IMG/VR virus record: IMGVR_UViG_647533159_000003
Length of the DNA: 46,723 nucleotides
Reading direction: 5' to 3' (one strand)
Source: a virus
Taxonomy: Duplodnaviria; Heunggongvirae; Uroviricota; Caudoviricetes
The notes under the pieces were generated by a model. That model did no database searches, was not told where the DNA came from, and saw only the letters and a program-made list of their open reading frames with translations. This document shows, piece after piece, positions 9,541 to 24,218 of the stretch; the first letter of the stretch is position 1; each line of letters starts with the position of its first letter. The position numbers and the translations under genes are program-made.

Positions 9541-10171
9541 TTACCAGGCACTGCGAATGGCGGCAGAAAATGCAACCCCTGGCGAATGGTGTTCTGATGA
9601 CTACTATGGGGTAATTGCTGATTCCGGAATGAATGGCAATTACTACATAGCATTATGCTCAGGACCAGATAAGCGCGCCAATAAGCGATTCATAGCAGCA
9701 GCCAATCCGGCTACCGTGCTGGCACTGCTGGATGAACGGGAAGCCCAAAGCAAACGCATTGCAGAGCTGGAGGCTAATCTTGCTGCGCTTGCGGCGGAGA
9801 ATGCGGGGCTGAATAAATTTATCGTACAGAGTTGCTACGTGTTTGATGGCGAGCAGGATGAACTATCTGATGCGTATATCTGCGCAATAGACGGAAGGAT
9901 GCCGCAAACCCCAGCCACCGACGCTTTCTTGGCTGAAGTGAAGACTGAAGCACGCAAGGAGGGCGCTTACTTTGTGGCGAACAGAATGCTGGCTGCCTGG
10001 GAAGCTGGTTTTATTGATGATACTGCGAAGAACGCCGCGGATATTGCCCGGATGATTCTTACCTCTACTGAGTTTATGGCTAATGCGCCGGAAGGCGATT
10101 TTGACCGCTCATTCTCTGATGGCGTTCTCGAAGATATCGCCGAACAGCTTCGAAAAGGAGGTAAACAGTGA
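9527..10171 (+). CDS. ead/Ea22-like family protein
   Basis: AGGAGG SD 6 nt before GTG 9527; N-terminus ...NYQALRMAAENATPGEWCSDDYYG typical of this family. Confidence 0.6.
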   Translation: MSNINYQALRMAAENATPGEWCSDDYYGVIADSGMNGNYYIALCSGPDKRANKRFIAAANPATVLALLDEREAQSKRIAELEANLAALAAENAGLNKFIVQSCYVFDGEQDELSDAYICAIDGRMPQTPATDAFLAEVKTEARKEGAYFVANRMLAAWEAGFIDDTAKNAADIARMILTSTEFMANAPEGDFDRSFSDGVLEDIAEQLRKGGKQ

Positions 10172-10422
10172 GTGAGCCAAAATGCCAAATTAATGGCAAC
10201 AAGATAGAACCATGTGCAGCACTGGCAAAATCCCTTGAGCATGATGCTGAATACACGACGCGAAAAGGTCTGCTGATATACAAAATCTGGAATGAGAGTT
10301 TAACTCGCGGCCCTGATTTGGTGATGTTGCGTTCCGGTGAATTTTCTAAATCACCAGTGCGGGTTTCATTTTGTCCGTTCTGTGGTGAAAGTCTGAAAAC
10401 GTGGGAGAACAGAAATGAATGA
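10168..10422 (+). CDS. Hypothetical protein with C-terminal CxxC (84 aa)
   Basis: AAGGAGG SD, GTG start overlapping the upstream stop (GTGA); C-terminal CPFCGESL. Confidence 0.5.
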   Translation: MSEPKCQINGNKIEPCAALAKSLEHDAEYTTRKGLLIYKIWNESLTRGPDLVMLRSGEFSKSPVRVSFCPFCGESLKTWENRNE

Positions 10423-10720
10423 AATTAAAGAAATACCAGTAGTACGTGATGAATATGGCTGCTGGACGCATCCTGAATATGAAAAATTCTGTGATGGTAG
10501 AGAACTTATTTCAACGGAAGAGTTTAACGCCTGGATGGAGGAAAATAATCTTCAATGGACCATCAGAACTATGGATGAAGATGATTTTAATCTGGACGCG
10601 GATGGTCCCGATATTGCCTCCTGGAAACCGGAGCGCCCGGAAGGTGAAGGCTGGTTCATTGGTTCCATTCATGACACTGAAGATGGTCCTGTTTGTGTAT
10701 GGCTGAGAAATAAGGCTTAA
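10415..10720 (+). CDS. Hypothetical nin-region protein (101 aa)
   Basis: GGGAG SD; ATG 10415 overlaps the upstream gene by 8 nt; acidic protein. Confidence 0.55.
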   Translation: MNEIKEIPVVRDEYGCWTHPEYEKFCDGRELISTEEFNAWMEENNLQWTIRTMDEDDFNLDADGPDIASWKPERPEGEGWFIGSIHDTEDGPVCVWLRNKA

Positions 10721-10853
10721 GCATAAAGGCGATAAACCACCTGACAACAAAACACTGAAAATTTAAATCAGAAGTGATTTTTATTAAATCCTTAACCGGA
10801 GGGATTCCTGCACCCTCAAATCATCAGGAGGCCGCCCGAAAGGGCGGTAATGA

Positions 10854-11072
10854 ATGGTCACATTATTCAGAAAAAAATATCCACGAAAGAGTAGAACAAC
10901 AGAATTCCTGTTTCTCATTCTGTTTATCGTGTTGATGATACCGATATCCCCGTTAATCCTGGTCTGGGTAATTGGAAAAATAATTGAACCAGTTATTGAG
11001 TTATATACCGATGTGACATGGGAACCATTCAGGGCGCTACACAATAAATTTAATCCGTATAAGGAAAACTGA
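10854..11072 (+). CDS. Putative small membrane protein (72 aa)
   Basis: Single strongly hydrophobic segment (FLFLILFIVLMIPISPLILVWVIG); AGGAGG and a GNRA hairpin precede the ATG. Confidence 0.3.
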   Translation: MVTLFRKKYPRKSRTTEFLFLILFIVLMIPISPLILVWVIGKIIEPVIELYTDVTWEPFRALHNKFNPYKEN

Positions 11073-11073
11073 T

Positions 11074-11361
11074 ATGACCACTATTACCAAAGAACGTATT
11101 GAATTGTTCATTAAAAATCCGCTTGAAAACGGGCTTACTCGTGGCGAACAAATGGAACTGGCACGAATTGCACTGGCATCACTGGCAGCAGTATCGGATG
11201 AACGAGCAGCCTATGAATTATTTATGGAGAAGCGTTTCGGGGAATCTGTAGATCGCCGCAGGGCAAAAAATGGCGATAGAGAATACATGGCATGGGATAT
11301 GGCGCTTGGCTGGATTATCTGGTGTCACCGCGCCGCAATGCTTAAGGGAGATAAATCATGA
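11074..11361 (+). CDS. Hypothetical protein (95 aa)
   Basis: AAGGAAAA SD-like before ATG 11074; start 2 nt after the upstream ORF's stop. Confidence 0.5.
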   Translation: MTTITKERIELFIKNPLENGLTRGEQMELARIALASLAAVSDERAAYELFMEKRFGESVDRRRAKNGDREYMAWDMALGWIIWCHRAAMLKGDKS

Positions 11362-11723
11362 TTAATCGAACCAAACTGGAACACATTCTCGAATATGCCA
11401 GGCAGCAGAGGCGCTTTGGTCAGCATTGCAAAATTCCGCCAGGAGATATGGTTGAAATCGTGGAGATTGCCATGCGCAAGGCTGGCAACTCTCCGGTAAC
11501 TCCGGATGGTTGGATAAGCTGTAGTGAGCGAATGCCGGAAAAGAACCAGAACGTGCTTATTTCGGTGAATTTCGATAGCTCTCTGGTTGAACCGCTAATA
11601 TGCTCCGCACGCTATACAGGAAGCACATTCCGGCGAGGAGAAGCAACGATTAAGCCGGGTAATGGTATTGAGCAGGCAACTCACTGGATGCCGCTACCGG
11701 AGCCACCGCAGGAGGTGAACTGA
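11358..11723 (+). CDS. DUF551-type phage protein
   Basis: C-terminal ...THWMPLPEPPQEV signature; start overlaps the upstream stop. Confidence 0.6.
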   Translation: MINRTKLEHILEYARQQRRFGQHCKIPPGDMVEIVEIAMRKAGNSPVTPDGWISCSERMPEKNQNVLISVNFDSSLVEPLICSARYTGSTFRRGEATIKPGNGIEQATHWMPLPEPPQEVN

Positions 11724-12118
11724 TGAAAAATGAAGTCGACAATGTTATCACCCTCGTACAGCCAAAATCAGAGGAGGAAGGACTCCTCAACGTTGTGATA
11801 ACCGACAGAAAAAGCGGCGAGCAAAAATGCTGTCAGCATATTCGTACAACAATTTCAGAAGTGAATCGTACGATTACCTGCAAACGGTGTGGATTAGCTT
11901 TAGATCCGTTCGAGTTTATTCTCGACCGTGCGAGAAACGGTGAAAACATCGTGTCTGAGATTAAATCACTCTATGCAAAGCGGGATGCTCTTCGTGAAGC
12001 TGTGGCAAAACTTGAACGTGAAGAGAAAAACGCCAAAGCCCGGTTACGAGCAGCCAGGACAGCAATACTGTATGCGGAAAATGACCTTAAAAATATTGAG
12101 CAGGAGGTGAATCGATGA
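11723..12118 (+). CDS. Hypothetical protein with zinc-ribbon-like Cys pairs and C-terminal coiled coil
   Basis: CC...C..C pattern (KCCQHIRTT...CKRCG); C-terminal K/E/R-rich heptad region. Confidence 0.5.
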   Translation: MKNEVDNVITLVQPKSEEEGLLNVVITDRKSGEQKCCQHIRTTISEVNRTITCKRCGLALDPFEFILDRARNGENIVSEIKSLYAKRDALREAVAKLEREEKNAKARLRAARTAILYAENDLKNIEQEVNR

Positions 12119-12198
12119 CCTGGCCTGAAGCATTCACAACGGTAGGAATTGCAATGGCGGCGGCGCTGGTGGTGTATTCGATTTGCCGCTGGATGTAA
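12115..12198 (+). CDS. Small hydrophobic peptide (27 aa), translationally coupled
   Basis: AGGAGG SD 7 nt before ATG 12115, which overlaps the upstream stop (ATGA); MTWPEAFTTVGIAMAAALVVYSICRWM. Confidence 0.4.
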   Translation: MTWPEAFTTVGIAMAAALVVYSICRWM

Positions 12199-12360
12199 GG
12201 TATTAAAAAAACGCCCCGCATACAGACGTTGAGCGCCTGAGATGTGGGGATAGGGAGTTAGTTAAATAGTTATACAACAATACCTGATTTTATATTGAAG
12301 CAAGAAATAGGTTGCTACATATTGAATCATGCGCGTGTACGTCAAATATGGGAGGTCATC

Positions 12361-12450
12361 GTGCTGGTTCTGAAATGTGCGCTGGCTGTTGCGGCAGTAA
12401 TGGCAATTTATTGTCTTGTTATCGTTCTTATGAATCACCTTTCTGATTGA
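12361..12450 (+). CDS. Small hydrophobic peptide (29 aa), possible type I toxin-like membrane peptide
   Basis: GGGAGG SD 5 nt before GTG 12361; VLVLKCALAVAAVMAIYCLVIVLMNHLSD. Confidence 0.3.
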   Translation: MLVLKCALAVAAVMAIYCLVIVLMNHLSD

Positions 12451-12663
12451 TTTCATATTGGCGAGGTGATGGGAGTTAAGTAGAATTGCTGCGGGTGCTT
12501 GAGGCTATCTGCCTCGGGCATGAACACCAACGGCAGATAGAGAAAAGCCCCAGTTAACATTACGCGTCCTGCAAGACGCTTAACATTAATCTGAGGCATA
12601 TCTGTATGCGACACATAAAGATTAGCCTCTTAACAGTAAGAAATCAACTAACAGGGGGCTGTA

Positions 12664-12809
12664 ATGCGAAGGAGCTATGTGTTTTGTCTGGTGGTGGTTT
12701 GCATCACCATTCTGATATTTGTCTGGATGGTTCGCTATGCGAGCTGCACATCAGGCAGGGAAACACAGAGCTTTCAGCGTATTTAGCCTACGAAGTTGAA
12801 AAACGTTAA
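12664..12809 (+). pseudogene. hok/gef-family type I toxin gene with an internal frameshift (mok-like overlapping frame 12606-12809)
   Basis: Frame from ATG 12664 gives MRRSYVFCLVVVCITILIFVWMVR (Hok TM-like); the Hok C-terminal signature SLCELHIRQGNTELSAYLAYE continues in the adjacent frame. Confidence 0.55.
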
Positions 12810-12876
12810 GAGCTACGGCGGGGAGCAATTCCCGCCACTCTTTAAGTTGTCAGGTATCCTCAATGCACCCGCACTT

Positions 12877-12897
12877 AACCCGCTTCGGCGGGTTTTT
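12877..12897 (+). terminator. Rho-independent terminator (copy 1 of a repeated 21-mer)
   Basis: aaCCCGCttcgGCGGGttttt. Confidence 0.7.
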
Positions 12898-13023
12898 CGT
12901 CGCATTATGAGGTTGTAATTTTAGCTACCATTAGACTATCCTAAGGATCTCAAACAGATCTATTTTGCATCAAATTTGGTGCATGGCTTTGCCAATAATC
13001 GGAAAACAAAAGGACTCATTAGT

Positions 13024-13203
13024 ATGAGCTGCCCACTCAAAAAACACACGCGGTTGAGTATTCCGCCTCGCGATAAAAGCGTTGTGGCAGTCCCTCGCCC
13101 AGCGATTGATGAAAACTGCGCACATCGTGAACAAGTGAAAAATGCTTTTGACTTCGGTTTTTCTCGTTATGAGAAAGCCATGGAAGACCTCTCTAAAGTG
13201 TAA
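13024..13203 (+). CDS. Putative antitoxin partner of the Doc-family toxin
   Basis: 59-aa ORF ending 3 nt before the toxin start; no family recognised; alternative TTG start at 12976. Confidence 0.4.
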   Translation: MSCPLKKHTRLSIPPRDKSVVAVPRPAIDENCAHREQVKNAFDFGFSRYEKAMEDLSKV

Positions 13204-13206
13204 TAG

Positions 13207-13707
13207 ATGGGGCTGTACTCCATGGCTGAGATTGTTGAAGGTGTGCATTACCTTACGGTTGATGATCTTGTTGAAATCAATTGTTCCCTAATTGAATTAC
13301 AGACGCCAGATGAGCCCGTTGGTGTTCTGAGTCCAGATAACTTAAGTTCTTCTCAGGCCCGTCCCAGCATGGTTCGATGGTATGAACAGATCAATGACAT
13401 GTTTGTACTGGCATCGGCATTGATTGAAAGTCTGATTCAGAATCATCCGTTTGCTAATGCGAACAAACGAACAGCTATGATGGCTGGTTACGTCTTCTTG
13501 TTGTTGAATGGCTATGAGTTAACAGCACCAGGCGATGAAATCGTGGAAATGGCAGAGGGACTGGCCTGCAAAACCTATACTCGAGAAGATCTCGAGAACT
13601 GGTTGTGTTATTGGTCTCGCGCGTATGACAGCCGGGAATTATGTAAAACAGGCGCAACTATTGTTTTGTATGAAACTATCAAGCTAAAAATAGAACAGCA
13701 AAACTAA
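13207..13707 (+). CDS. Fic/Doc-family toxin (Doc-like motif HPFANANKR)
   Basis: Motif ...NHPFANANKRTAMMAGYVFLL... fits the Doc signature HxFx(D/N)(A/G)NKR. Confidence 0.7.
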   Translation: MGLYSMAEIVEGVHYLTVDDLVEINCSLIELQTPDEPVGVLSPDNLSSSQARPSMVRWYEQINDMFVLASALIESLIQNHPFANANKRTAMMAGYVFLLLNGYELTAPGDEIVEMAEGLACKTYTREDLENWLCYWSRAYDSRELCKTGATIVLYETIKLKIEQQN

Positions 13708-13723
13708 AGGTGCTTCCAATGAA

Positions 13724-13745
13724 AACCCGCTTCGGCGGGTTTTTT
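13724..13745 (+). terminator. Rho-independent terminator (copy 2 of the same 21-mer)
   Basis: aaCCCGCttcgGCGGGtttttt, identical to the 12877-12897 core. Confidence 0.75.
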
Positions 13746-14169
13746 GTTGTTTATTTTCGGTGAGTATGATGCATCTGGTTGTACTGATGTGGCTGGCTGA
13801 TTCTGTTATTCAGGTGGCTTATTGCTGTTGATTGGTATGTCTTCACGGCTAGAATCGAGGATCTTAAGTAGCGCGCAGGGAGAAGAGGGATGGACCCCTT
13901 AAGGGGAGGTGTTTAAAGTTCACGGGATTTTGGTTATGAACGATAAGGAATTAATTGCTGCGCTCTCTGTACCTGGTAATTATGAAGTAATAGTTCTTGA
14001 GAATGGTGAATTTATCGTAATGCCATTGCCACCCGATGTTATTCTGATCACCAAAGAATCGCATGCGGATTCGGTCAGTCACTTCAGCATTAAGAAAGAC
14101 TAGATTATAATGCCGTAGTTAAAGCCAGCCTGAACAACTGGCGTCTGTCGCACCATTACGAGGATAGTA

Positions 14170-14448
14170 GTGGTGCATTACAAGAAAATTAACAATTCTG
14201 ATAATACAGCCGTCTTTGCCAGCAGGCACGGGCGGCGTTCTCATGCATTTAAATCTGACTGGTTCCAGCATGATCCATGCACTGAAGAACAGGCCGAATG
14301 GCTGATTCAGAACTATCGCAGACGTGGGTATGAGTTTAGGAAAGCCCTCAGCCTCGATTATCGTCACTGGATAATCTACGTCAGGCTCCCTTATTCCGAA
14401 CGCCCACCACGCCCGTCCCGCACATTCCAGCAACGGATCTGGAGGTAA
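14170..14448 (+). CDS. Hypothetical protein (92 aa)
   Basis: GTG start with GAGGA upstream; stop lies 1 nt before the DUF968 start. Confidence 0.4.
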   Translation: MVHYKKINNSDNTAVFASRHGRRSHAFKSDWFQHDPCTEEQAEWLIQNYRRRGYEFRKALSLDYRHWIIYVRLPYSERPPRPSRTFQQRIWR

Positions 14449-14449
14449 C

Positions 14450-15496
14450 GTGCGGGTATTACTTCGACCTGTTCCGATACCGGAACTCGGGCTGGTGGTC
14501 CTTAAACCAGGCCGTGAATCCATGCAGGTATTTCATAACCCTCGAGTGCTGGTGGAGCCGGAACCGAAAAGCATGCGAGGTCTGCCATCCGGAGTCGTTC
14601 CTGCCGTTCGCCAGCCGCTGGCGGAGGATAAATCATTACTGCCATTTTTCAGCGATGAGCGGGTGATTCGTGCTGCTGGCGGCGCTGGTGCACTGTCTGA
14701 CTGGCTGTTGCGTCATATCAAATCCTGCCAGTGGCCTCATGGTGACTACCACCACAGCGAAACCGTCATACATCGTTACGGTACCGGCGCGATGGTGTTG
14801 TGCTGGCACTGCGACAACCAGCTGCGTGACCAGACTTCCGAATCACTCGGGCAACTTGCTCATCGAAACCTGTCAGCATGGATGATTGACGTCATACGCC
14901 ATGCAATGAACGGCACGCAGGAGCGGGAACTGTCGCTGGCTGAATTATCCTGGTGGGCGGTCCGCAATCAGGTGGCGGACGCGCTACCGGAAGCGGTATT
15001 ACGTCGTTCGCTGGGGTTGCGTGCGGAAAAAATCCGCTCAATGTACCGTGAAAGCGACATAGTACCGGGAGAGCAGACCGCCACCAGCATACTGAAGCAG
15101 CGCACAAAAAATCTTGCGCCGCTGCCTCACGCCCACCAGCAAAACCCGCCACAGGAAAAGACGGTGGTCAGCATTGCCGTTGATCCGGAGTCTCCTGAAT
15201 CTTTCATGAAGCGACCTAAACGTCGCCGTTGGGTAAATGAGAAATATACGCGCTGGGTAAAGACACAGCCGTGTGAGTGTTGTGGTAAGCCAGCCGACGA
15301 TCCCCATCACCTGATTGGTCATGGTCAGGGCGGAATGGGAACAAAATCCCACGATATTTTTACGCTACCGCTGTGCCGGGAGCATCACAATGAACTTCAT
15401 GCTGATCCGCTGGCATTTGAAGAAAAGCATGGTTCCCAGATTGATTTAATTTTTCGTTTTCTTGATCACGCCTTTGCAACCGGCGTGCTCGGGTAA
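14450..15496 (+). CDS. DUF968 family protein (YdfU-like; C-terminal HNH-like Cys/His cluster)
   Basis: GGAGG SD then GTG; C-terminus CECCGKPADDPHHLIGHGQGG...CREHHNELH. Confidence 0.75.
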   Translation: MRVLLRPVPIPELGLVVLKPGRESMQVFHNPRVLVEPEPKSMRGLPSGVVPAVRQPLAEDKSLLPFFSDERVIRAAGGAGALSDWLLRHIKSCQWPHGDYHHSETVIHRYGTGAMVLCWHCDNQLRDQTSESLGQLAHRNLSAWMIDVIRHAMNGTQERELSLAELSWWAVRNQVADALPEAVLRRSLGLRAEKIRSMYRESDIVPGEQTATSILKQRTKNLAPLPHAHQQNPPQEKTVVSIAVDPESPESFMKRPKRRRWVNEKYTRWVKTQPCECCGKPADDPHHLIGHGQGGMGTKSHDIFTLPLCREHHNELHADPLAFEEKHGSQIDLIFRFLDHAFATGVLG

Positions 15497-15508
15497 AAGA
15501 GGTTACTG

Positions 15509-15868
15509 ATGCGTATAGAGTTTGTTTTGCCTTACCCACCGACAGTGAACACCTACTGGCGGCGTCGTGGCAGCACATATTTTGTATCAAAAGCCGGTGA
15601 GCGTTATCGCAGGGACGTTGCGCTTATCGTTCGTCAACTGCAATTGAAATTAAATCTGTCCGGAAGGCTGGCGATAAAGATTATTGCAGAGCCGCCGGAT
15701 AAGCGCCGTCGTGACTTGGACAACATTCTGAAAGCACCACTGGATGCACTGACGCATGCGGGGCTTCTCATAGACGACGAGCAGTTTGATGAAATTAATA
15801 TTGTGCGCGGTCTTCCTGTTCCTGGTGGTCGGTTGGGGATAAAAATCACAGAACTGGAGTGCGCATGA
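15509..15868 (+). CDS. rusA: Holliday junction resolvase RusA
   Basis: 119 aa; ...DKRRRDLDNILKAPLDALTHAGLLIDD... matches the RusA family. Confidence 0.85.
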   Translation: MRIEFVLPYPPTVNTYWRRRGSTYFVSKAGERYRRDVALIVRQLQLKLNLSGRLAIKIIAEPPDKRRRDLDNILKAPLDALTHAGLLIDDEQFDEINIVRGLPVPGGRLGIKITELECA

Positions 15869-16554
15869 ATAACCAGTATTTACAGTTTGTTCGTGAGCAG
15901 CTCATTATCGCCACCGCCGATTTGAGTGGGGCAACAAAAGGCCAGCTTGAAGCCTGGCTGGAGAATGCCATGTTCGATACAGGGCGTTACAGGCGTAAAA
16001 AAATCCGGTACCGCGATGAAGTGACTGGAAAAATGATCACGCGGGATAATCCACCAATCCCGGGGAAACAATCGCTGGCAAAGGGGACGTCAATTCCTCT
16101 GGTAAGTCAGGTTGAGTTTTCGACATCATCATGGCGACGGGCAGTTCTGTCTCTTGAAGAACACCATAAAGCCTGGTTGCTGTGGTGTTACAGCGGCAGC
16201 ATTTGCTGGGAACACCAGATTGCGATAACACAGTGGGTGTGGAATGAATTTAACGCCCAATCCGGTACCAGAAAAATTGCAGGGAAAACGCTGGAGCGCC
16301 TGAAAAAATTAATCTGGCTGGCGGCACAGGATGTGAAGAGTGAGCTGGCTGGGCGTGAAACTTATGAATATCAGGAGCTGGCATTACTGGCGGGAGTAAC
16401 AACAAAAAACTGGTCCAAAACATTTACTGGTCACTGGGTTGCAATGAAACACATTTTCCACCGTCTGGATAGTGAGGCTTTATTGTTTGTGATGAGAACA
16501 CGTTCAGAACAAAAGGCGGCATTTTCAAAGCAAAGTGTTGCAAAAGTAGATTAA
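15865..16554 (+). CDS. Putative late-gene antiterminator Q
   Basis: ATG overlaps the rusA stop (ATGA); sits directly upstream of a strong promoter plus terminator (PR'/tR'-like). Confidence 0.6.
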   Translation: MNNQYLQFVREQLIIATADLSGATKGQLEAWLENAMFDTGRYRRKKIRYRDEVTGKMITRDNPPIPGKQSLAKGTSIPLVSQVEFSTSSWRRAVLSLEEHHKAWLLWCYSGSICWEHQIAITQWVWNEFNAQSGTRKIAGKTLERLKKLIWLAAQDVKSELAGRETYEYQELALLAGVTTKNWSKTFTGHWVAMKHIFHRLDSEALLFVMRTRSEQKAAFSKQSVAKVD

Positions 16555-16878: not shown

Positions 16879-16954
<76 letters not shown>

Positions 16955-16957
16955 TAT

Positions 16958-17032
<75 letters not shown>

Positions 17033-21781: not shown

Positions 21782-22330
21782 GTGAAAGTTAACAAAAAGA
21801 AACTTGCTGAAATTTTCAACGTGGATCCGCGAACGATTGAACGCTGGCAGTCTCAGGGGCTATCTTGCGTCTCCGGAGGTAGCAAGGGTGTTGAATCGGT
21901 GTTTGATACCGCGATGGCAATTCAGTGGTACGCGCAGAGAGAAACTGATATCGAAAACGAAAAGCTCCGCAAAGAACTGGAAGATTTGCGTGCGGCTGCA
22001 GAATCAGATTTACAACCCGGCACCATTGACTATGAACGCTACCGGCTCACCAAAGCACAGGCTGACGCACAGGAGCTGAAAAATGCCCGTGAAGAAGGGC
22101 TGGTGCTGGAAACGGAATTGTTTACCTTCATTCTGCAACGTGTGGCACAGGAGATTTCGGGGATACTTGTACGTGTGCCGCTGACATTACAGCGTAAATA
22201 TCCGGATATTTCACCATCACACCTTGATGTGGTGAAAACTGAAATCGCGAAAGCCTCCAATGTTGCAGCTAAAGCCGGTGAAAACGTGGGCAGGTGGATT
22301 GATGATTTCAGACGCACAGAAGGCAGCTAA
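21782..22330 (+). CDS. Terminase small subunit (lambda Nu1-like)
   Basis: From GTG 21782: [12 protein letters not shown]...[46 protein letters not shown], closely resembling lambda Nu1. Confidence 0.85.
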
Positions 22331-24218
22331 TGCAGCCGGTGCGATAGCTACAGGGCTTTTATCTCTCAATATTCCGGTTCCACTGACGACGGTTCAGTGG
22401 GCTGATCAACATTATTATCTGCCGAAAGAATCTTCATACACTCCCGGACAATGGGAAACCCTGCCGTTTCAGGTTGCCATTATGAACAGCATGGGAAATG
22501 ACCGGATCCGCACCGTTAATCTGATTAAATCGGCGCGCGTTGGTTACACCAAAATGCTGTTGGGGGTGGAGGCTTATTTTATTGAGCATAAATCCCGTAA
22601 CAGTCTGCTTTTTCAGCCAACAGATTCTGCGGCAGAAGATTTCATGAAATCTCATGTTGAGCCAACGATCAGGGATGTCCCTGCATTGCTGGAGCTGGCT
22701 CCATGGTTCGGAAGAAAGCACCGCGATAATACACTCACCCTGAAGCGTTTTTCCTCCGGCGTGGGGTTCTGGTGCCTGGGCGGTGCCGCAGCTAAAAACT
22801 ACCGTGAAAAATCTGTGGATGTGGTCTGCTATGACGAACTCTCCTCGTTTGAACCGGATGTGGAAAAAGAAGGCTCGCCGACGCTGCTTGGCGATAAACG
22901 TATCGAAGGCTCGGTATGGCCTAAATCCATACGTGGCTCAACGCCGAAAATTAAAGGCTCCTGTCAGATTGAGAAAGCCGCGAATGAATCTGCGCATTTC
23001 ATGCGGTTTTATGTCCCTTGCCCTCATTGCGGGGAGGCCCAGTATCTGAAGTTTGGCGATGATGCGACGCCGTCTGGCCTGAAATGGGAGAAGGGTAAAC
23101 CGGAAACGGTGTATTACCTGTGTGAACATAATGGCTGTGTGATCCGGCAGTCGGAACTTGACCAGACCGACGGACGCTGGATTTGTGACAATACCGGGAT
23201 GTGGACGCGCGACGGCCTGGCATTTTACAGCGCCGGTGATGAGGAGATACCGCCACCGCGCTCAATCACGTACCACGTGTGGACAGCGTACAGTCCGTTC
23301 ACCACCTGGGTGCAGATTGTCTACGACTGGCTGGATGCGCTGAAGGATCCGAACGGCGTCAAGACGTTTATTAACACCACGCTCGGGGAGCCCTATGAAG
23401 AGGCTGTGGCAGAAAAGCTGAGTTTTGAGTTGTTACTGGAAAAGGTCTGCCACTATGGTGCGCAGGTTCCCCTGCGGGTGGTTTACCTGACCGCAGGGAT
23501 CGACTCCCAGAAAGATCGCTATGAAATTTATGTCTGGGGCTGGGCTCCCGGCGAAGAAGCCTTTCTGATTGATAAGCAAATTATCATGGGGCGACCGGAA
23601 GACGAGGACACCCTTAAACGTGTTGATACGGTGATCCGGAAAAAATATCGTCATGCTGACGGTACTGAAATTTCCATTTCCCGTGTCTGCTGGGATACCG
23701 GTGGTATCGACCAGGACATTGTGTATCAGCGTTCCAGGAAACACGGCACTTTTTTTGTGCTTCCCATAAAAGGGGCATCGGTGTACGGCAAGCCGGTGAT
23801 CACCATGCCCAAAAAGCGCAACCAGCGTGGTGTGTTTTTGTGTGAGGTGGGCTCCGATACCGTCAAGGAAATGCTGTACGCCCGTTTTGCCCTGCCAGTG
23901 GTCTCTGCCAGTGAAGCCGCCCCGTACACCTTCCGTTTTCCGGATAACCCCGACATTTTTTCGGAAGAAGAGGCGCGTCAGATCGTGGCGGAAGAGCTGG
24001 TGGAGAAGGTGGTTAATGGCAGGGTGAAACTGCTGTGGGATAAAAAAGGACGACGCAACGAAGCCCTCGACTGCCTGGTATATGCCTATGCTGCCCTGCG
24101 TATTTCAGTTCAGCGGTGGCAGCTGGATCTTGAAGCACTGGCCCGTGCCAGAAGAGATGAGCAGGACGACGATGAGATGAGTCTGGAAGAAATCGCGGCT
24201 GCACTGAGTGGAGGATAA
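22302..24218 (+). CDS. Terminase large subunit (lambda A-like)
   Basis: AGGTGGA SD then ATG 22302; collinear similarity to lambda gpA ([12 protein letters not shown]..., ...[19 protein letters not shown]...). Confidence 0.9.

What the first reader, a model, noticed from the sequence alone, without database searches (positions are those of the whole stretch)
12606..12809. hok/gef-type type I toxin locus disrupted by a frameshift, with an intact mok-like overlapping frame
From ATG 12664 one frame encodes a Hok-like N-terminus and TM helix (MRRSYVFCLVVVCITILIFVWMVR), but the conserved Hok C-terminus (SLCELHIRQGNTELSAYLAYE, compare HokA/HokC ...SLCELHIKQ... / ...DLCEVHIRTGQTEVAVFTAYE) lies in the adjacent frame. 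That frame is open for 67 codons from ATG 12606, 58 nt upstream, which is the mok-type arrangement. An indel near 12735-12745 therefore appears to have inactivated the toxin, as is known for many chromosomal hok loci. The structured leader upstream (inverted repeats at about 12505-12539 and 12573-12588) fits hok mRNA architecture. A sequencing error would instead imply a live toxin.
Basis: partly seen in the sequence, partly recalled or inferred. Interest (0 to 1): 0.6.

Follow-up and report, generated by a model that had tools for sequence, protein, structure and literature searches.

The report
Frameshifted hok/sok toxin locus in prophage
This is an ordinary hok/sok toxin-antitoxin cassette in a lambda-like prophage whose toxin gene was broken by loss of one copy of a 7-base tandem repeat, while all its RNA control elements still look intact.

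Summary
Window 12458-12897 is a complete hok/mok/sok type I toxin-antitoxin cassette. Rfam RF01794 scores 98 bits. Pfam HOK_GEF matches the two halves in two different frames.

Intact relatives, identical at every aligned base, carry GGTTCGC twice in tandem. The window has one copy (12729-12735). This 7-bp deletion splits Hok into two products:
- a 40-aa peptide with the membrane helix and a nonsense tail;
- a 67-aa ORF that is not an intact Mok, but Mok residues 1-41 fused to Hok residues 25-50. Real Mok is 66 aa and ends in another frame.

It is not a sequencing error. The same allele occurs in a 5.16-Mb chromosome, in E. coli B799 and in an ENA metagenome, always in the same prophage backbone. 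It is rare: 0 of 5,426 complete E. coli genomes, whereas the intact peptide is on 532 contigs.

The following are unchanged or look intact:
- the hok promoter;
- 5'/3' end pairing (tac/fbi);
- the mok start;
- the mapped Sok gene.

The extra A at 12600 is a polymorphism also found in intact alleles.

Verdict: a recent, single-origin hok pseudogene in a lambdoid prophage. It belongs to a known kind and is of low interest.

The parts
12458..12486 (+). hok/mok mRNA promoter (-35 TTGGCG, 17-nt spacer, -10 TAGAAT)
   Evidence: Consensus scan, 9 of 12 matches. It lies 7 nt upstream of the first position of the Rfam model. The -10 is conserved in all relatives.
12493..12897 (+). Full-length hok mRNA (about 405 nt), from the leader to the intrinsic terminator hairpin (12877-12894) and T run
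   Evidence: Predicted MFE is -173.1 kcal/mol, z = -9.1 against 100 shuffles. It is collinear with annotated hok loci in L001, L002, L003 and L015.
12493..12504 (+). tac element (5' end), pairs with fbi
   Evidence: In the MFE, nt 1-12 pair with nt 366-378. Pairing probability is 0.90-1.00 per base.
12858..12870 (+). fbi element (3' fold-back inhibitory sequence)
   Evidence: Partner of 12493-12504 in the MFE and in the ensemble. Conserved in the 933W, N61 and ETEC1731 loci.
12493..12666 (+). hok mRNA leader, matched by Rfam RF01794 'sok' on the mRNA strand
   Evidence: 98.2 bits against a gathering score of 59, E 4e-21, model positions 1-157 of 157.
12543..12612 (-). Sok antisense RNA gene: about 70 nt, with a 5' single-stranded tail, a long hairpin and a U-rich 3' end
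   Evidence: Mapped column by column from the annotated sokW of phage 933W (L003 671-741). The fold is -29.7 kcal/mol, z = -5.6. It covers the mok SD and start codon.
12619..12647 (-). Putative Sok promoter (-35 TTGATT 12647-12642, 17-nt spacer, -10 TAATCT 12624-12619)
   Evidence: Read from the sequence, 7 nt upstream of the mapped Sok 5' end. It is identical in all intact E. coli alleles. It falls below the consensus-scan threshold, so it is inferred and not shown.
12593..12608 (+). mok Shine-Dalgarno (GAGG 12593-12596) and start codon (ATG 12606-12608); polymorphic extra A at 12600
   Evidence: Sequence. The mok start aligns with the annotated mokW start, offset by 2 nt. The extra A is also present in the intact alleles L011 and L012.
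12606..12809 (+). 67-aa chimeric ORF. The 123 nt upstream of the repeat unit encode Mok residues 1-41. The deletion fuses them in frame to Hok residues 25-50.
   Evidence: ORF list. The intact Mok is 66 aa and ends in a different frame. Pfam HOK_GEF profile positions 23-42 match residues 43-62. It is deposited as hypothetical protein EIG43335.1 in E. coli B799.
12664..12786 (+). Truncated hok' ORF: Hok residues 1-24 (membrane helix) plus 16 out-of-frame residues (YASCTSGRETQSFQRI), 40 aa in all
   Evidence: ORF list. Pfam HOK_GEF profile positions 3-23 are matched. Residues 1-24 are identical to the intact 50-aa WP_001585819.1.
12729..12735 (+). The single remaining GGTTCGC unit: site of the 7-bp deletion, where intact alleles have two tandem copies
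   Evidence: Alignments with 9 distinct intact loci from E. coli, IMG/VR contigs and Salmonella. All of them carry GGTTCGCGGTTCGC.

Best explanation
The locus is a hok/mok/sok type I toxin-antitoxin cassette carried in the early-right region, upstream of antiterminator Q, of a lambda-like prophage.

How the intact form works (established knowledge of the family):
- A stable hok mRNA is kept untranslatable by pairing of its 5' end (tac) with its 3' end (fbi).
- Slow 3' trimming then opens the mok ribosome-binding site.
- Translation of mok is needed for translation of the overlapping hok frame.
- The short-lived antisense Sok RNA, made from the opposite strand across the mok start, blocks this and triggers RNase III cleavage.

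What happened here:
- One unit of a 7-bp tandem repeat (GGTTCGC GGTTCGC, encoding V23-R24-G25-S26-L27) was lost, most likely by slipped-strand mispairing.
- The hok frame now leaves the Hok sequence after residue 24 and ends after 16 unrelated residues.
- The conserved periplasmic C-terminal half is now read in the mok frame, as a Mok'-'Hok fusion without a membrane helix.
- Neither product is expected to kill, so the toxin arm is dead.
- The promoter, tac/fbi, mok start, Sok gene and terminator are unchanged. The locus probably still makes hok mRNA and Sok RNA.

What is shown and what is inferred:
- Shown: the family match, the exact lesion, its presence in independent assemblies, its single prophage background, and the conservation of the RNA elements.
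- Inferred: loss of toxicity, continued transcription, and slippage as the mutational mechanism.
For: Family match:
- Pfam HOK_GEF scores 26.3 and 28.7 bits for the two half-ORFs, matching complementary halves of the profile.
- Rfam RF01794 scores 98.2 bits.

Lesion:
- The window differs from E. coli ETEC1731 by 0 mismatches and 2 gaps over 413 nt.
- One gap is the 7-bp repeat unit.
- The other is the A at 12600, which also occurs in the intact alleles L011 and L012.
- The two-copy state is ancestral. It gives a gapless 50-aa Hok. It is present in all 9 distinct intact loci examined, including Salmonella. The intact peptide is on 532 contigs, with close variants in Salmonella, Citrobacter and Enterobacter.

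The mutation is real:
- The exact 67-aa fusion ORF is encoded in OU349838.1 (100% identical to the window over 6.2 kb), in E. coli B799 and in ENA metagenome ERZ28647215. A one-residue variant lies on two further contigs.

Single origin:
- All carriers share the same flanks.
- Outside one recombination patch at 10335-10744, they differ from the window by a single SNP.

RNA elements intact:
- The tac/fbi pairing probability is at least 0.9.
- The predicted fold is essentially identical with or without the 7 nt (-173.1 against -174.2 kcal/mol), because the deleted unit lies in an internal loop.
- Sok maps by homology to the annotated sokW and folds into a tail, hairpin and U tract.

Loss of toxicity, by analogy:
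- In R1 Hok, 18 of the 20 codons that one substitution can turn into a stop were recovered as loss-of-toxicity mutations. An 8-aa C-terminal tag abolishes toxicity, and a 17-aa C-terminal extension is expected to (PMC9841398).
- A stop-codon Hok R1 construct is non-toxic (bioRxiv 10.1101/2025.08.07.668861).
- Replacing the Gef C-terminal region with PhoA gave a non-toxic protein (Poulsen 1991, as cited in PMC8509063).
Against: - No expression or toxicity data exist for this allele.
- No toxicity test of the intact allele was found. It is listed as peptide #1537 in the Hok catalogue preprint, but it is absent from the supplementary files that hold the tested constructs.
- The 40-aa product keeps the whole membrane helix and by chance has a Cys at position 28, so some residual membrane activity cannot be excluded.
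- The Sok promoter hexamers (TTGATT / TAATCT) are weak by consensus, and the generic scan did not call them.
- Raw reads could not be inspected.
Confidence: 0.9

Rival explanations
1. The 7-bp gap is a sequencing or assembly error, and the locus encodes a live 50-aa Hok toxin.
For: None positive. The allele is absent from 5,426 complete RefSeq E. coli genomes and from the GTDB species representatives.
Against: The same deletion is found in a 5.16-Mb chromosome (OU349838.1), in the older draft of E. coli B799 and in an ENA metagenome assembly. A one-residue variant of the fusion ORF lies on two further contigs. A clean loss of a 7-nt repeat unit is not a typical base-calling error.
Confidence: 0.02
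2. The frameshift did not kill the gene. The 40-aa membrane peptide, or the 67-aa Mok-Hok fusion, keeps attenuated toxicity or has acquired another small-protein function.
For: The 40-aa ORF keeps the full hydrophobic helix (residues 1-24 identical to intact Hok). It also keeps the hok SD, the start codon and mok coupling. Saturation mutagenesis of HokC indicates that the membrane segment contributes to toxicity (PMC8509063).
Against: Premature stops across R1 hok, and C-terminal tags and extensions, abolish toxicity (PMC9841398). The new 16-residue tail has no family match. The fusion lacks a hydrophobic segment. The allele is rare and confined to one young prophage lineage, so there is no sign of spread or selection.
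Confidence: 0.06
3. A dead toxin with a live antitoxin. The locus is retained because its Sok RNA neutralises the same hok type on incoming or co-resident phages and plasmids, acting as an anti-addiction or immunity module. This is compatible with the pseudogene reading and adds a function to it.
For: The Sok gene, its promoter region and the whole hok mRNA scaffold show no substitutions relative to intact alleles. The Sok hairpin and terminator are predicted intact.
Against: Zero divergence is equally expected if the deletion is simply recent. The carriers are almost identical over several kb. There is therefore no time depth to detect selection, and no expression data exist.
Confidence: 0.08
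4. Programmed recoding (a -1 ribosomal frameshift or transcriptional slippage at the repeat) restores full-length Hok at low frequency, as an extra safety catch.
For: Only the geometry. The two halves overlap on the 7-nt unit, and a shift from the hok frame into the mok frame would rebuild a Hok-like protein.
Against: There is no slippery heptamer or homopolymer run at 12720-12745. The predicted structure there is an internal loop, not a stimulatory hairpin or pseudoknot. All other members of the subfamily are encoded in a single frame.
Confidence: 0.01

Closest known systems
Intact allele of the same hok subfamily (WP_001585819.1, 'Hok/Gef family protein'; peptide #1537 in the Hok catalogue of bioRxiv 10.1101/2025.08.07.668861)
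   Same: The DNA is identical at every aligned base across the whole cassette in E. coli ETEC1731 (0 mismatches over 413 nt). It has the same promoter, leader, mok start, Sok region and fbi, and it also sits in lambdoid prophages upstream of DUF968/RusA/Q.
   Different: The window lacks one GGTTCGC unit, so Hok is split across two frames. The window also carries the polymorphic extra A at 12600 and has different flanking DNA.
hokW/mokW/sokW of Stx2 phage 933W / Sakai prophage Sp5
   Same: It is a prophage-borne hok/mok/sok cassette. Its leader is nearly identical at 12473-12598 and its fbi is conserved. The annotated sokW covers the mok start in the same position. Experiments show it to be a working type I TA that aids phage release after induction (PMC8621323).
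   Different: The toxin is only 37% identical. It sits at a different place in the phage genome. hokW is intact and functional, whereas the window's toxin is frameshifted.
hokD (relF)-type cassette in the same prophage backbone (E. coli N61, L015)
   Same: The flanks are essentially the same as in the window: the upstream small ORF, then the downstream 59-aa ORF, Doc-family toxin and DUF968 gene. The leader and terminator are also the same.
   Different: The central mok/hok coding block is a different hok type (37% protein identity) and is intact. The window looks like a cassette swap, with joints in the conserved leader and the fbi/terminator.
hok/sok of plasmid R1 (the family's reference system)
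   Same: The overall anatomy matches: tac/fbi end pairing, an overlapping mok frame that starts upstream, an antisense Sok across the mok start, and a toxin of about 50 aa with a membrane helix and a periplasmic C-terminus (PMC9841398).
   Different: R1 hok/sok is plasmid-borne and active in post-segregational killing. The window's copy is prophage-borne and frameshifted.
Inactivated chromosomal hok loci of E. coli K-12 (Pedersen and Gerdes 1999, from my own knowledge; chromosomal loci described as inactive in bioRxiv 10.1101/2025.08.07.668861)
   Same: The general phenomenon is the same: hok loci in genomes are often non-functional.
   Different: As I recall, the K-12 loci are inactivated mainly by IS elements, rearrangements or point mutations in regulatory parts. 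Here a 7-bp repeat-unit deletion hits the coding frame and leaves every regulatory element untouched.

Membership tests
Hok/Gef toxin family (Pfam PF01848) | One reading frame of about 50 codons that matches the whole profile (N-terminal membrane helix plus conserved C-terminal LCE...AYE part) | tested here: not met
   The profile is split. Positions 3-23 lie in the frame from 12664 and positions 23-42 in the frame from 12606. Re-inserting GGTTCGC gives one frame with 72.8 bits over positions 3-42. The locus is therefore a pseudogene of a family member, not a coding member.
Hok/Gef toxin family (Pfam PF01848) | Significant sequence match to the family profile | tested here: met
   Both fragments exceed the 22-bit gathering score (26.3 and 28.7 bits). 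The 24 N-terminal and 26 C-terminal residues are identical to the RefSeq Hok/Gef protein WP_001585819.1.
hok/mok/sok type I TA locus | Overlapping mok frame with its own SD and start upstream of hok | tested here: met
   GAGG at 12593-12596 and ATG at 12606, 58 nt upstream of the hok ATG. The start aligns with the annotated mokW start. The downstream part of the frame is altered by the deletion. Translation of mok beyond the hok start is reported to be dispensable (PMC9841398).
hok/mok/sok type I TA locus | Structured hok mRNA with 5'-3' end pairing (tac/fbi) and the conserved leader | tested here: met
   Rfam RF01794 at 98.2 bits. The MFE pairs 12493-12504 with 12858-12870 at probability 0.90 or higher, z = -9.1.
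hok/mok/sok type I TA locus | Antisense Sok RNA gene with its own promoter, overlapping the mok translation start | tested here: inconclusive
   Sok maps by homology to the annotated sokW at 12612->12543. It folds as a 5' tail, a hairpin and a U tract, z = -5.6. Promoter hexamers are present at the expected distance but are weak and were not called by the scan. Transcription cannot be tested here.
hok/mok/sok type I TA locus | Toxin kills when Sok is absent, and Sok suppresses killing | not testable with these tools
   This needs expression assays. By analogy with R1 hok truncations, the frameshifted products should be non-toxic.
HokA equivalog (NCBIfam NF007290) | Score at or above the curated cut-off of 89 bits | tested here: not met
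   Even the repaired 50-aa protein scores only 70 bits. It is HokA-like but not HokA.
Hok subfamily model (NCBIfam NF007279) | Score at or above the curated cut-off of 73 bits | tested here: not met
   The repaired protein scores 62.4 bits. PGAP accordingly names the intact allele only 'Hok/Gef family protein'.

The most novel reading that the evidence does not exclude
The tandem GGTTCGC repeat inside this hok subfamily may be a built-in, one-way off switch: the dominant route by which lysogens escape the toxin. The resulting dead-toxin, live-Sok locus may then be kept as an anti-addiction or immunity module against related hok-carrying phages. The evidence does not exclude this, because the Sok gene and the mRNA scaffold are untouched. 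It does not support it either, because the carriers are too closely related to show selection.
Probability: 0.08. Interest if true: 0.4.

Novelty: new member of a known kind. Interest (0 to 1): 0.13.

Why it matters
It matters mainly for annotation. The 67-aa ORF deposited as a hypothetical protein (EIG43335.1) is a Mok-Hok fusion artefact of a frameshift. Gene callers do not report the 40-aa fragment at all. The locus should be annotated as a frameshifted hok pseudogene with a probably intact sok.

It is also a clean natural example of how a type I toxin is lost while its RNA regulatory scaffold survives. The 7-bp tandem repeat that encodes VRGSL is a candidate mutational weak point of this Hok subfamily. 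Nothing here changes the understanding of hok/sok biology.

Tried and rejected
- **Sequencing error:** rejected, because the same allele occurs in independent assemblies.
- **The extra A at 12600 as a second lesion in the mok SD-ATG spacer or the Sok tail:** rejected. The same A is present in the intact alleles L011 and L012, and 933W has an even longer spacer.
- **An effect of the deletion on mRNA structure:** rejected.
- **Recurrent, independent deletions (a hot spot seen in the wild):** not supported.
  - All deletion carriers share one backbone.
  - L007 from IMG/VR turned out to be the same sequence as B799.
  - A gapped pattern allowing 0 to 14 bases between the flanks found only 7-base (two-copy, intact) inserts elsewhere: 6 IMG/VR contigs and 1 Salmonella representative genome. 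It found no three-copy expansions.
  - The JGI metagenome scan found neither allele.
- **A lead that this subfamily is naturally non-toxic:** it came from the non-toxic construct 69_1540 in the Hok preprint. It was rejected because #1540 is an unrelated sequence.
- **Searches that could not be run:** The gapped pattern derived from the window was used instead.
- **Missing data:** the FASTBAC-seq supplement with individual stop-codon positions is not held.

Full report
**Observation**

The two overlapping ORFs exist as described: 12606..12809 (67 aa) and 12664..12786 (40 aa). Against Pfam's HOK_GEF profile:
- the 40-aa ORF matches positions 3-23 (26.3 bits);
- the 67-aa ORF matches positions 23-42 (28.7 bits).

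Both exceed the 22-bit gathering score. A one-frame repair matches positions 3-42 at 72.8 bits. The upstream leader matches Rfam RF01794 over the full model (12493-12666, + strand, 98.2 bits against a gathering score of 59, E 4e-21). This is far beyond chance.

**The lesion**

Eleven of 5,426 complete E. coli genomes carry this hok type. All are annotated as an intact 50-aa 'Hok/Gef family protein', WP_001585819.1: MRRSYVFCLVVVCITILIFVWMVRGSLCELHIRQGNTELSAYLAYEVEKR.

The window differs from the ETEC1731 locus by 0 mismatches and 2 gaps over 413 nt.
- **First gap.** Intact alleles read ATGGTTCGCGGTTCGCTATGC, with GGTTCGC twice in tandem. The window has one unit, at 12729-12735. Losing 7 nt shifts the Hok C-terminal half into the mok frame.
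- **Second gap.** The window has an extra A at 12600, between the mok SD and its ATG. Two intact alleles from IMG/VR (L011, L012) have the same A, so it is a polymorphism.

The two-copy state is ancestral. It gives a gapless family match. It is present in every intact locus examined, including a Salmonella enterica representative genome. The intact peptide is seen on 532 contigs, with variants at least 90% identical in Salmonella, Citrobacter and Enterobacter.

**The mok frame**

ATG 12606, preceded by GAGG at 12593-12596, is the authentic mok start. It aligns with the annotated mokW start of phage 933W, offset by 2 nt. In intact alleles Mok is 66 aa and ends ...DGSRFAMRAAHQAGKHRAFSVFSLRS*. 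The window's 67-aa ORF is therefore a chimera: Mok residues 1-41 fused to Hok residues 25-50. It is not an intact Mok. For R1, translation of mok beyond the hok start is reported to be unnecessary (PMC9841398), so the coupling function of mok may well survive.

**Real mutation or error**

The exact 67-aa fusion ORF is encoded in:
- OU349838.1, a 5.16-Mb chromosome that is 100% identical to window 9606-15809;
- E. coli B799, where it is deposited as hypothetical protein EIG43335.1;
- an ENA metagenome assembly (ERZ28647215).

A one-residue variant lies on two further contigs. An IMG/VR hit (L007) is the B799 sequence again and does not count as independent.

All carriers share the same flanks. 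Outside a recombination patch at 10335-10744, they differ from the window by a single SNP. This points to one event in one young prophage lineage.

The allele is absent from the complete E. coli genomes, from the GTDB species representatives and from the JGI metagenomes.

**Regulatory anatomy**

- **Promoter.** A promoter-like site (TTGGCG, 17 nt, TAGAAT; 12458-12486) lies 7 nt before the first position of the Rfam model.
- **hok mRNA.** The 407-nt transcript 12493-12899 folds at -173.1 kcal/mol, z = -9.1. Its first 12 nt pair with 12858-12870 (tac/fbi) at probability 0.90 or higher. A terminator hairpin lies at 12877-12894.
- **Effect of the deletion on the fold.** Re-inserting the 7 nt leaves the fold unchanged (-174.2 kcal/mol), because the unit sits in an internal loop.
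- **Sok.** It maps from the annotated sokW to 12612->12543 on the minus strand. It folds as a 5' single-stranded tail of about 15 nt, a long hairpin and a U-rich end, z = -5.6.
- **Sok promoter.** Upstream of Sok lie TTGATT (12647-12642), a 17-nt spacer and TAATCT (12624-12619). These are weak by consensus and the scan did not call them, but they are identical in all intact E. coli alleles.
- **Rfam strand.** The Rfam 'sok' hit is on the mRNA strand, not on the Sok strand.

**Context**

The cassette lies in a lambdoid prophage. The window holds:
- integrase at 1-1131;
- the Ea22/DUF4014/DUF551 gene block;
- the hok cassette;
- a 59-aa ORF and a Doc-family toxin;
- DUF968 and RusA genes, and antiterminator Q at 15859-16554;
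- two tRNAs;
- terminase at 22260-24218.

hok genes are known to be enriched in prophages (bioRxiv 10.1101/2025.08.07.668861). The hokW/sokW pair of prophage Sp5 is a working type I TA that promotes phage release (PMC8621323).

The window's cassette is mosaic. Its flanks match the hokD-type locus of E. coli N61. Its mok/hok core matches the WP_001585819 type. The joints lie in the conserved leader and in the fbi/terminator.

**Mechanism and consequence**

Losing one unit of a two-unit tandem repeat is what slipped-strand mispairing would produce (inference). Neither product is expected to be toxic:
- The hok frame now yields residues 1-24 (the membrane helix) plus 16 unrelated residues.
- The conserved C-terminal half is made only as part of a fusion that has no hydrophobic segment.

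The support comes from other Hok proteins:
- For R1 Hok, 18 of the 20 codons that one substitution can turn into a stop were recovered as loss-of-toxicity mutations. An 8-aa C-terminal tag abolishes toxicity, and a 17-aa C-terminal extension is expected to (PMC9841398).
- A stop-codon Hok R1 construct is non-toxic.
- Replacing the Gef C-terminal region with PhoA gave a non-toxic protein (Poulsen 1991, as cited in PMC8509063).

I therefore rate the toxin as dead (inferred, about 0.9). The RNA parts are probably still expressed (inferred).

**Comparison and novelty**

The intact protein is a Hok/Gef family member. It is not an equivalog of HokA (70 bits against an 89-bit cut-off) and does not reach the NCBIfam Hok subfamily model (62.4 against 73). 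It is only 37% identical to HokD and HokW. It is already catalogued as peptide #1537 in the Hok survey preprint. It is absent from the supplementary files that hold that study's tested constructs.

Non-functional hok loci in genomes are a long-known phenomenon (Pedersen and Gerdes 1999, from my own knowledge). This case is a new allele of a known kind and is of low interest.

The only mildly interesting points are:
- the 7-bp repeat as a possible escape hot spot;
- the dead-toxin, live-Sok configuration, which I could not test.

Noticed in passing
13024-13707 (+): A second toxin-antitoxin module lies directly downstream of the dead hok. It is a 59-aa ORF with no family match, followed by a 166-aa Doc-family toxin (Pfam Fic 43.5 bits; NCBIfam TIGR01550 DOC_P1 125 bits). 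The same pair is annotated as a death-on-curing family toxin in E. coli N61. It appears intact.
   Followed up: partly
12380-12990, compared with L015 (E. coli N61) and L001 (ETEC1731): The hok cassette is mosaic. Both flanks match a hokD-type locus in the same prophage backbone, while the mok/hok core matches a different hok type. The joints lie inside the conserved leader (12473-12598) and the fbi/terminator (about 12855-12890). The conserved RNA elements may serve as recombination sites for swapping toxin cores.
   Followed up: partly
12600: A one-base A insertion/deletion polymorphism lies between the mok SD and ATG, which is also within the 5' recognition tail of Sok. It is present in the window and in the intact alleles L011 and L012, and absent in others. 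Phage 933W has a still longer spacer.
   Followed up: yes
12473-12598 against 12599-12850, compared with 933W (L003): The leader, including the Sok hairpin and terminator, is almost identical between hok types whose toxins share only 37% identity. Divergence starts exactly at the Sok 5' tail and the mok start. Sok RNAs of different hok types would then share the hairpin and differ mainly in the recognition tail.
   Followed up: no
12295-12450 (+): A 51-aa hydrophobic ORF (MKQEIGCYILNHARVRQIWEVIVLVLKCALAVAAVMAIYCLVIVLMNHLSD) lies just upstream of the hok promoter. It is conserved upstream of the hokD-type locus in E. coli N61 and has no Pfam match.
   Followed up: no
16879-17032 (+): Two tRNA genes, tRNA-Thr (TGT) and tRNA-Gly (TCC), lie immediately downstream of the antiterminator Q gene.
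   Followed up: no
12493-12666 (+): Rfam family RF01794, named 'sok antitoxin', matches the hok mRNA (sense) strand. The Sok gene itself maps to the minus strand at 12612-12543, so the family name can mislead strand annotation.
   Followed up: yes
10335-10744, window compared with L007/L005 (E. coli B799): Twenty-nine of the 30 differences between the window and the B799 prophage cluster in this 410-bp stretch. This looks like a small recombination patch in an otherwise near-identical prophage.
   Followed up: no
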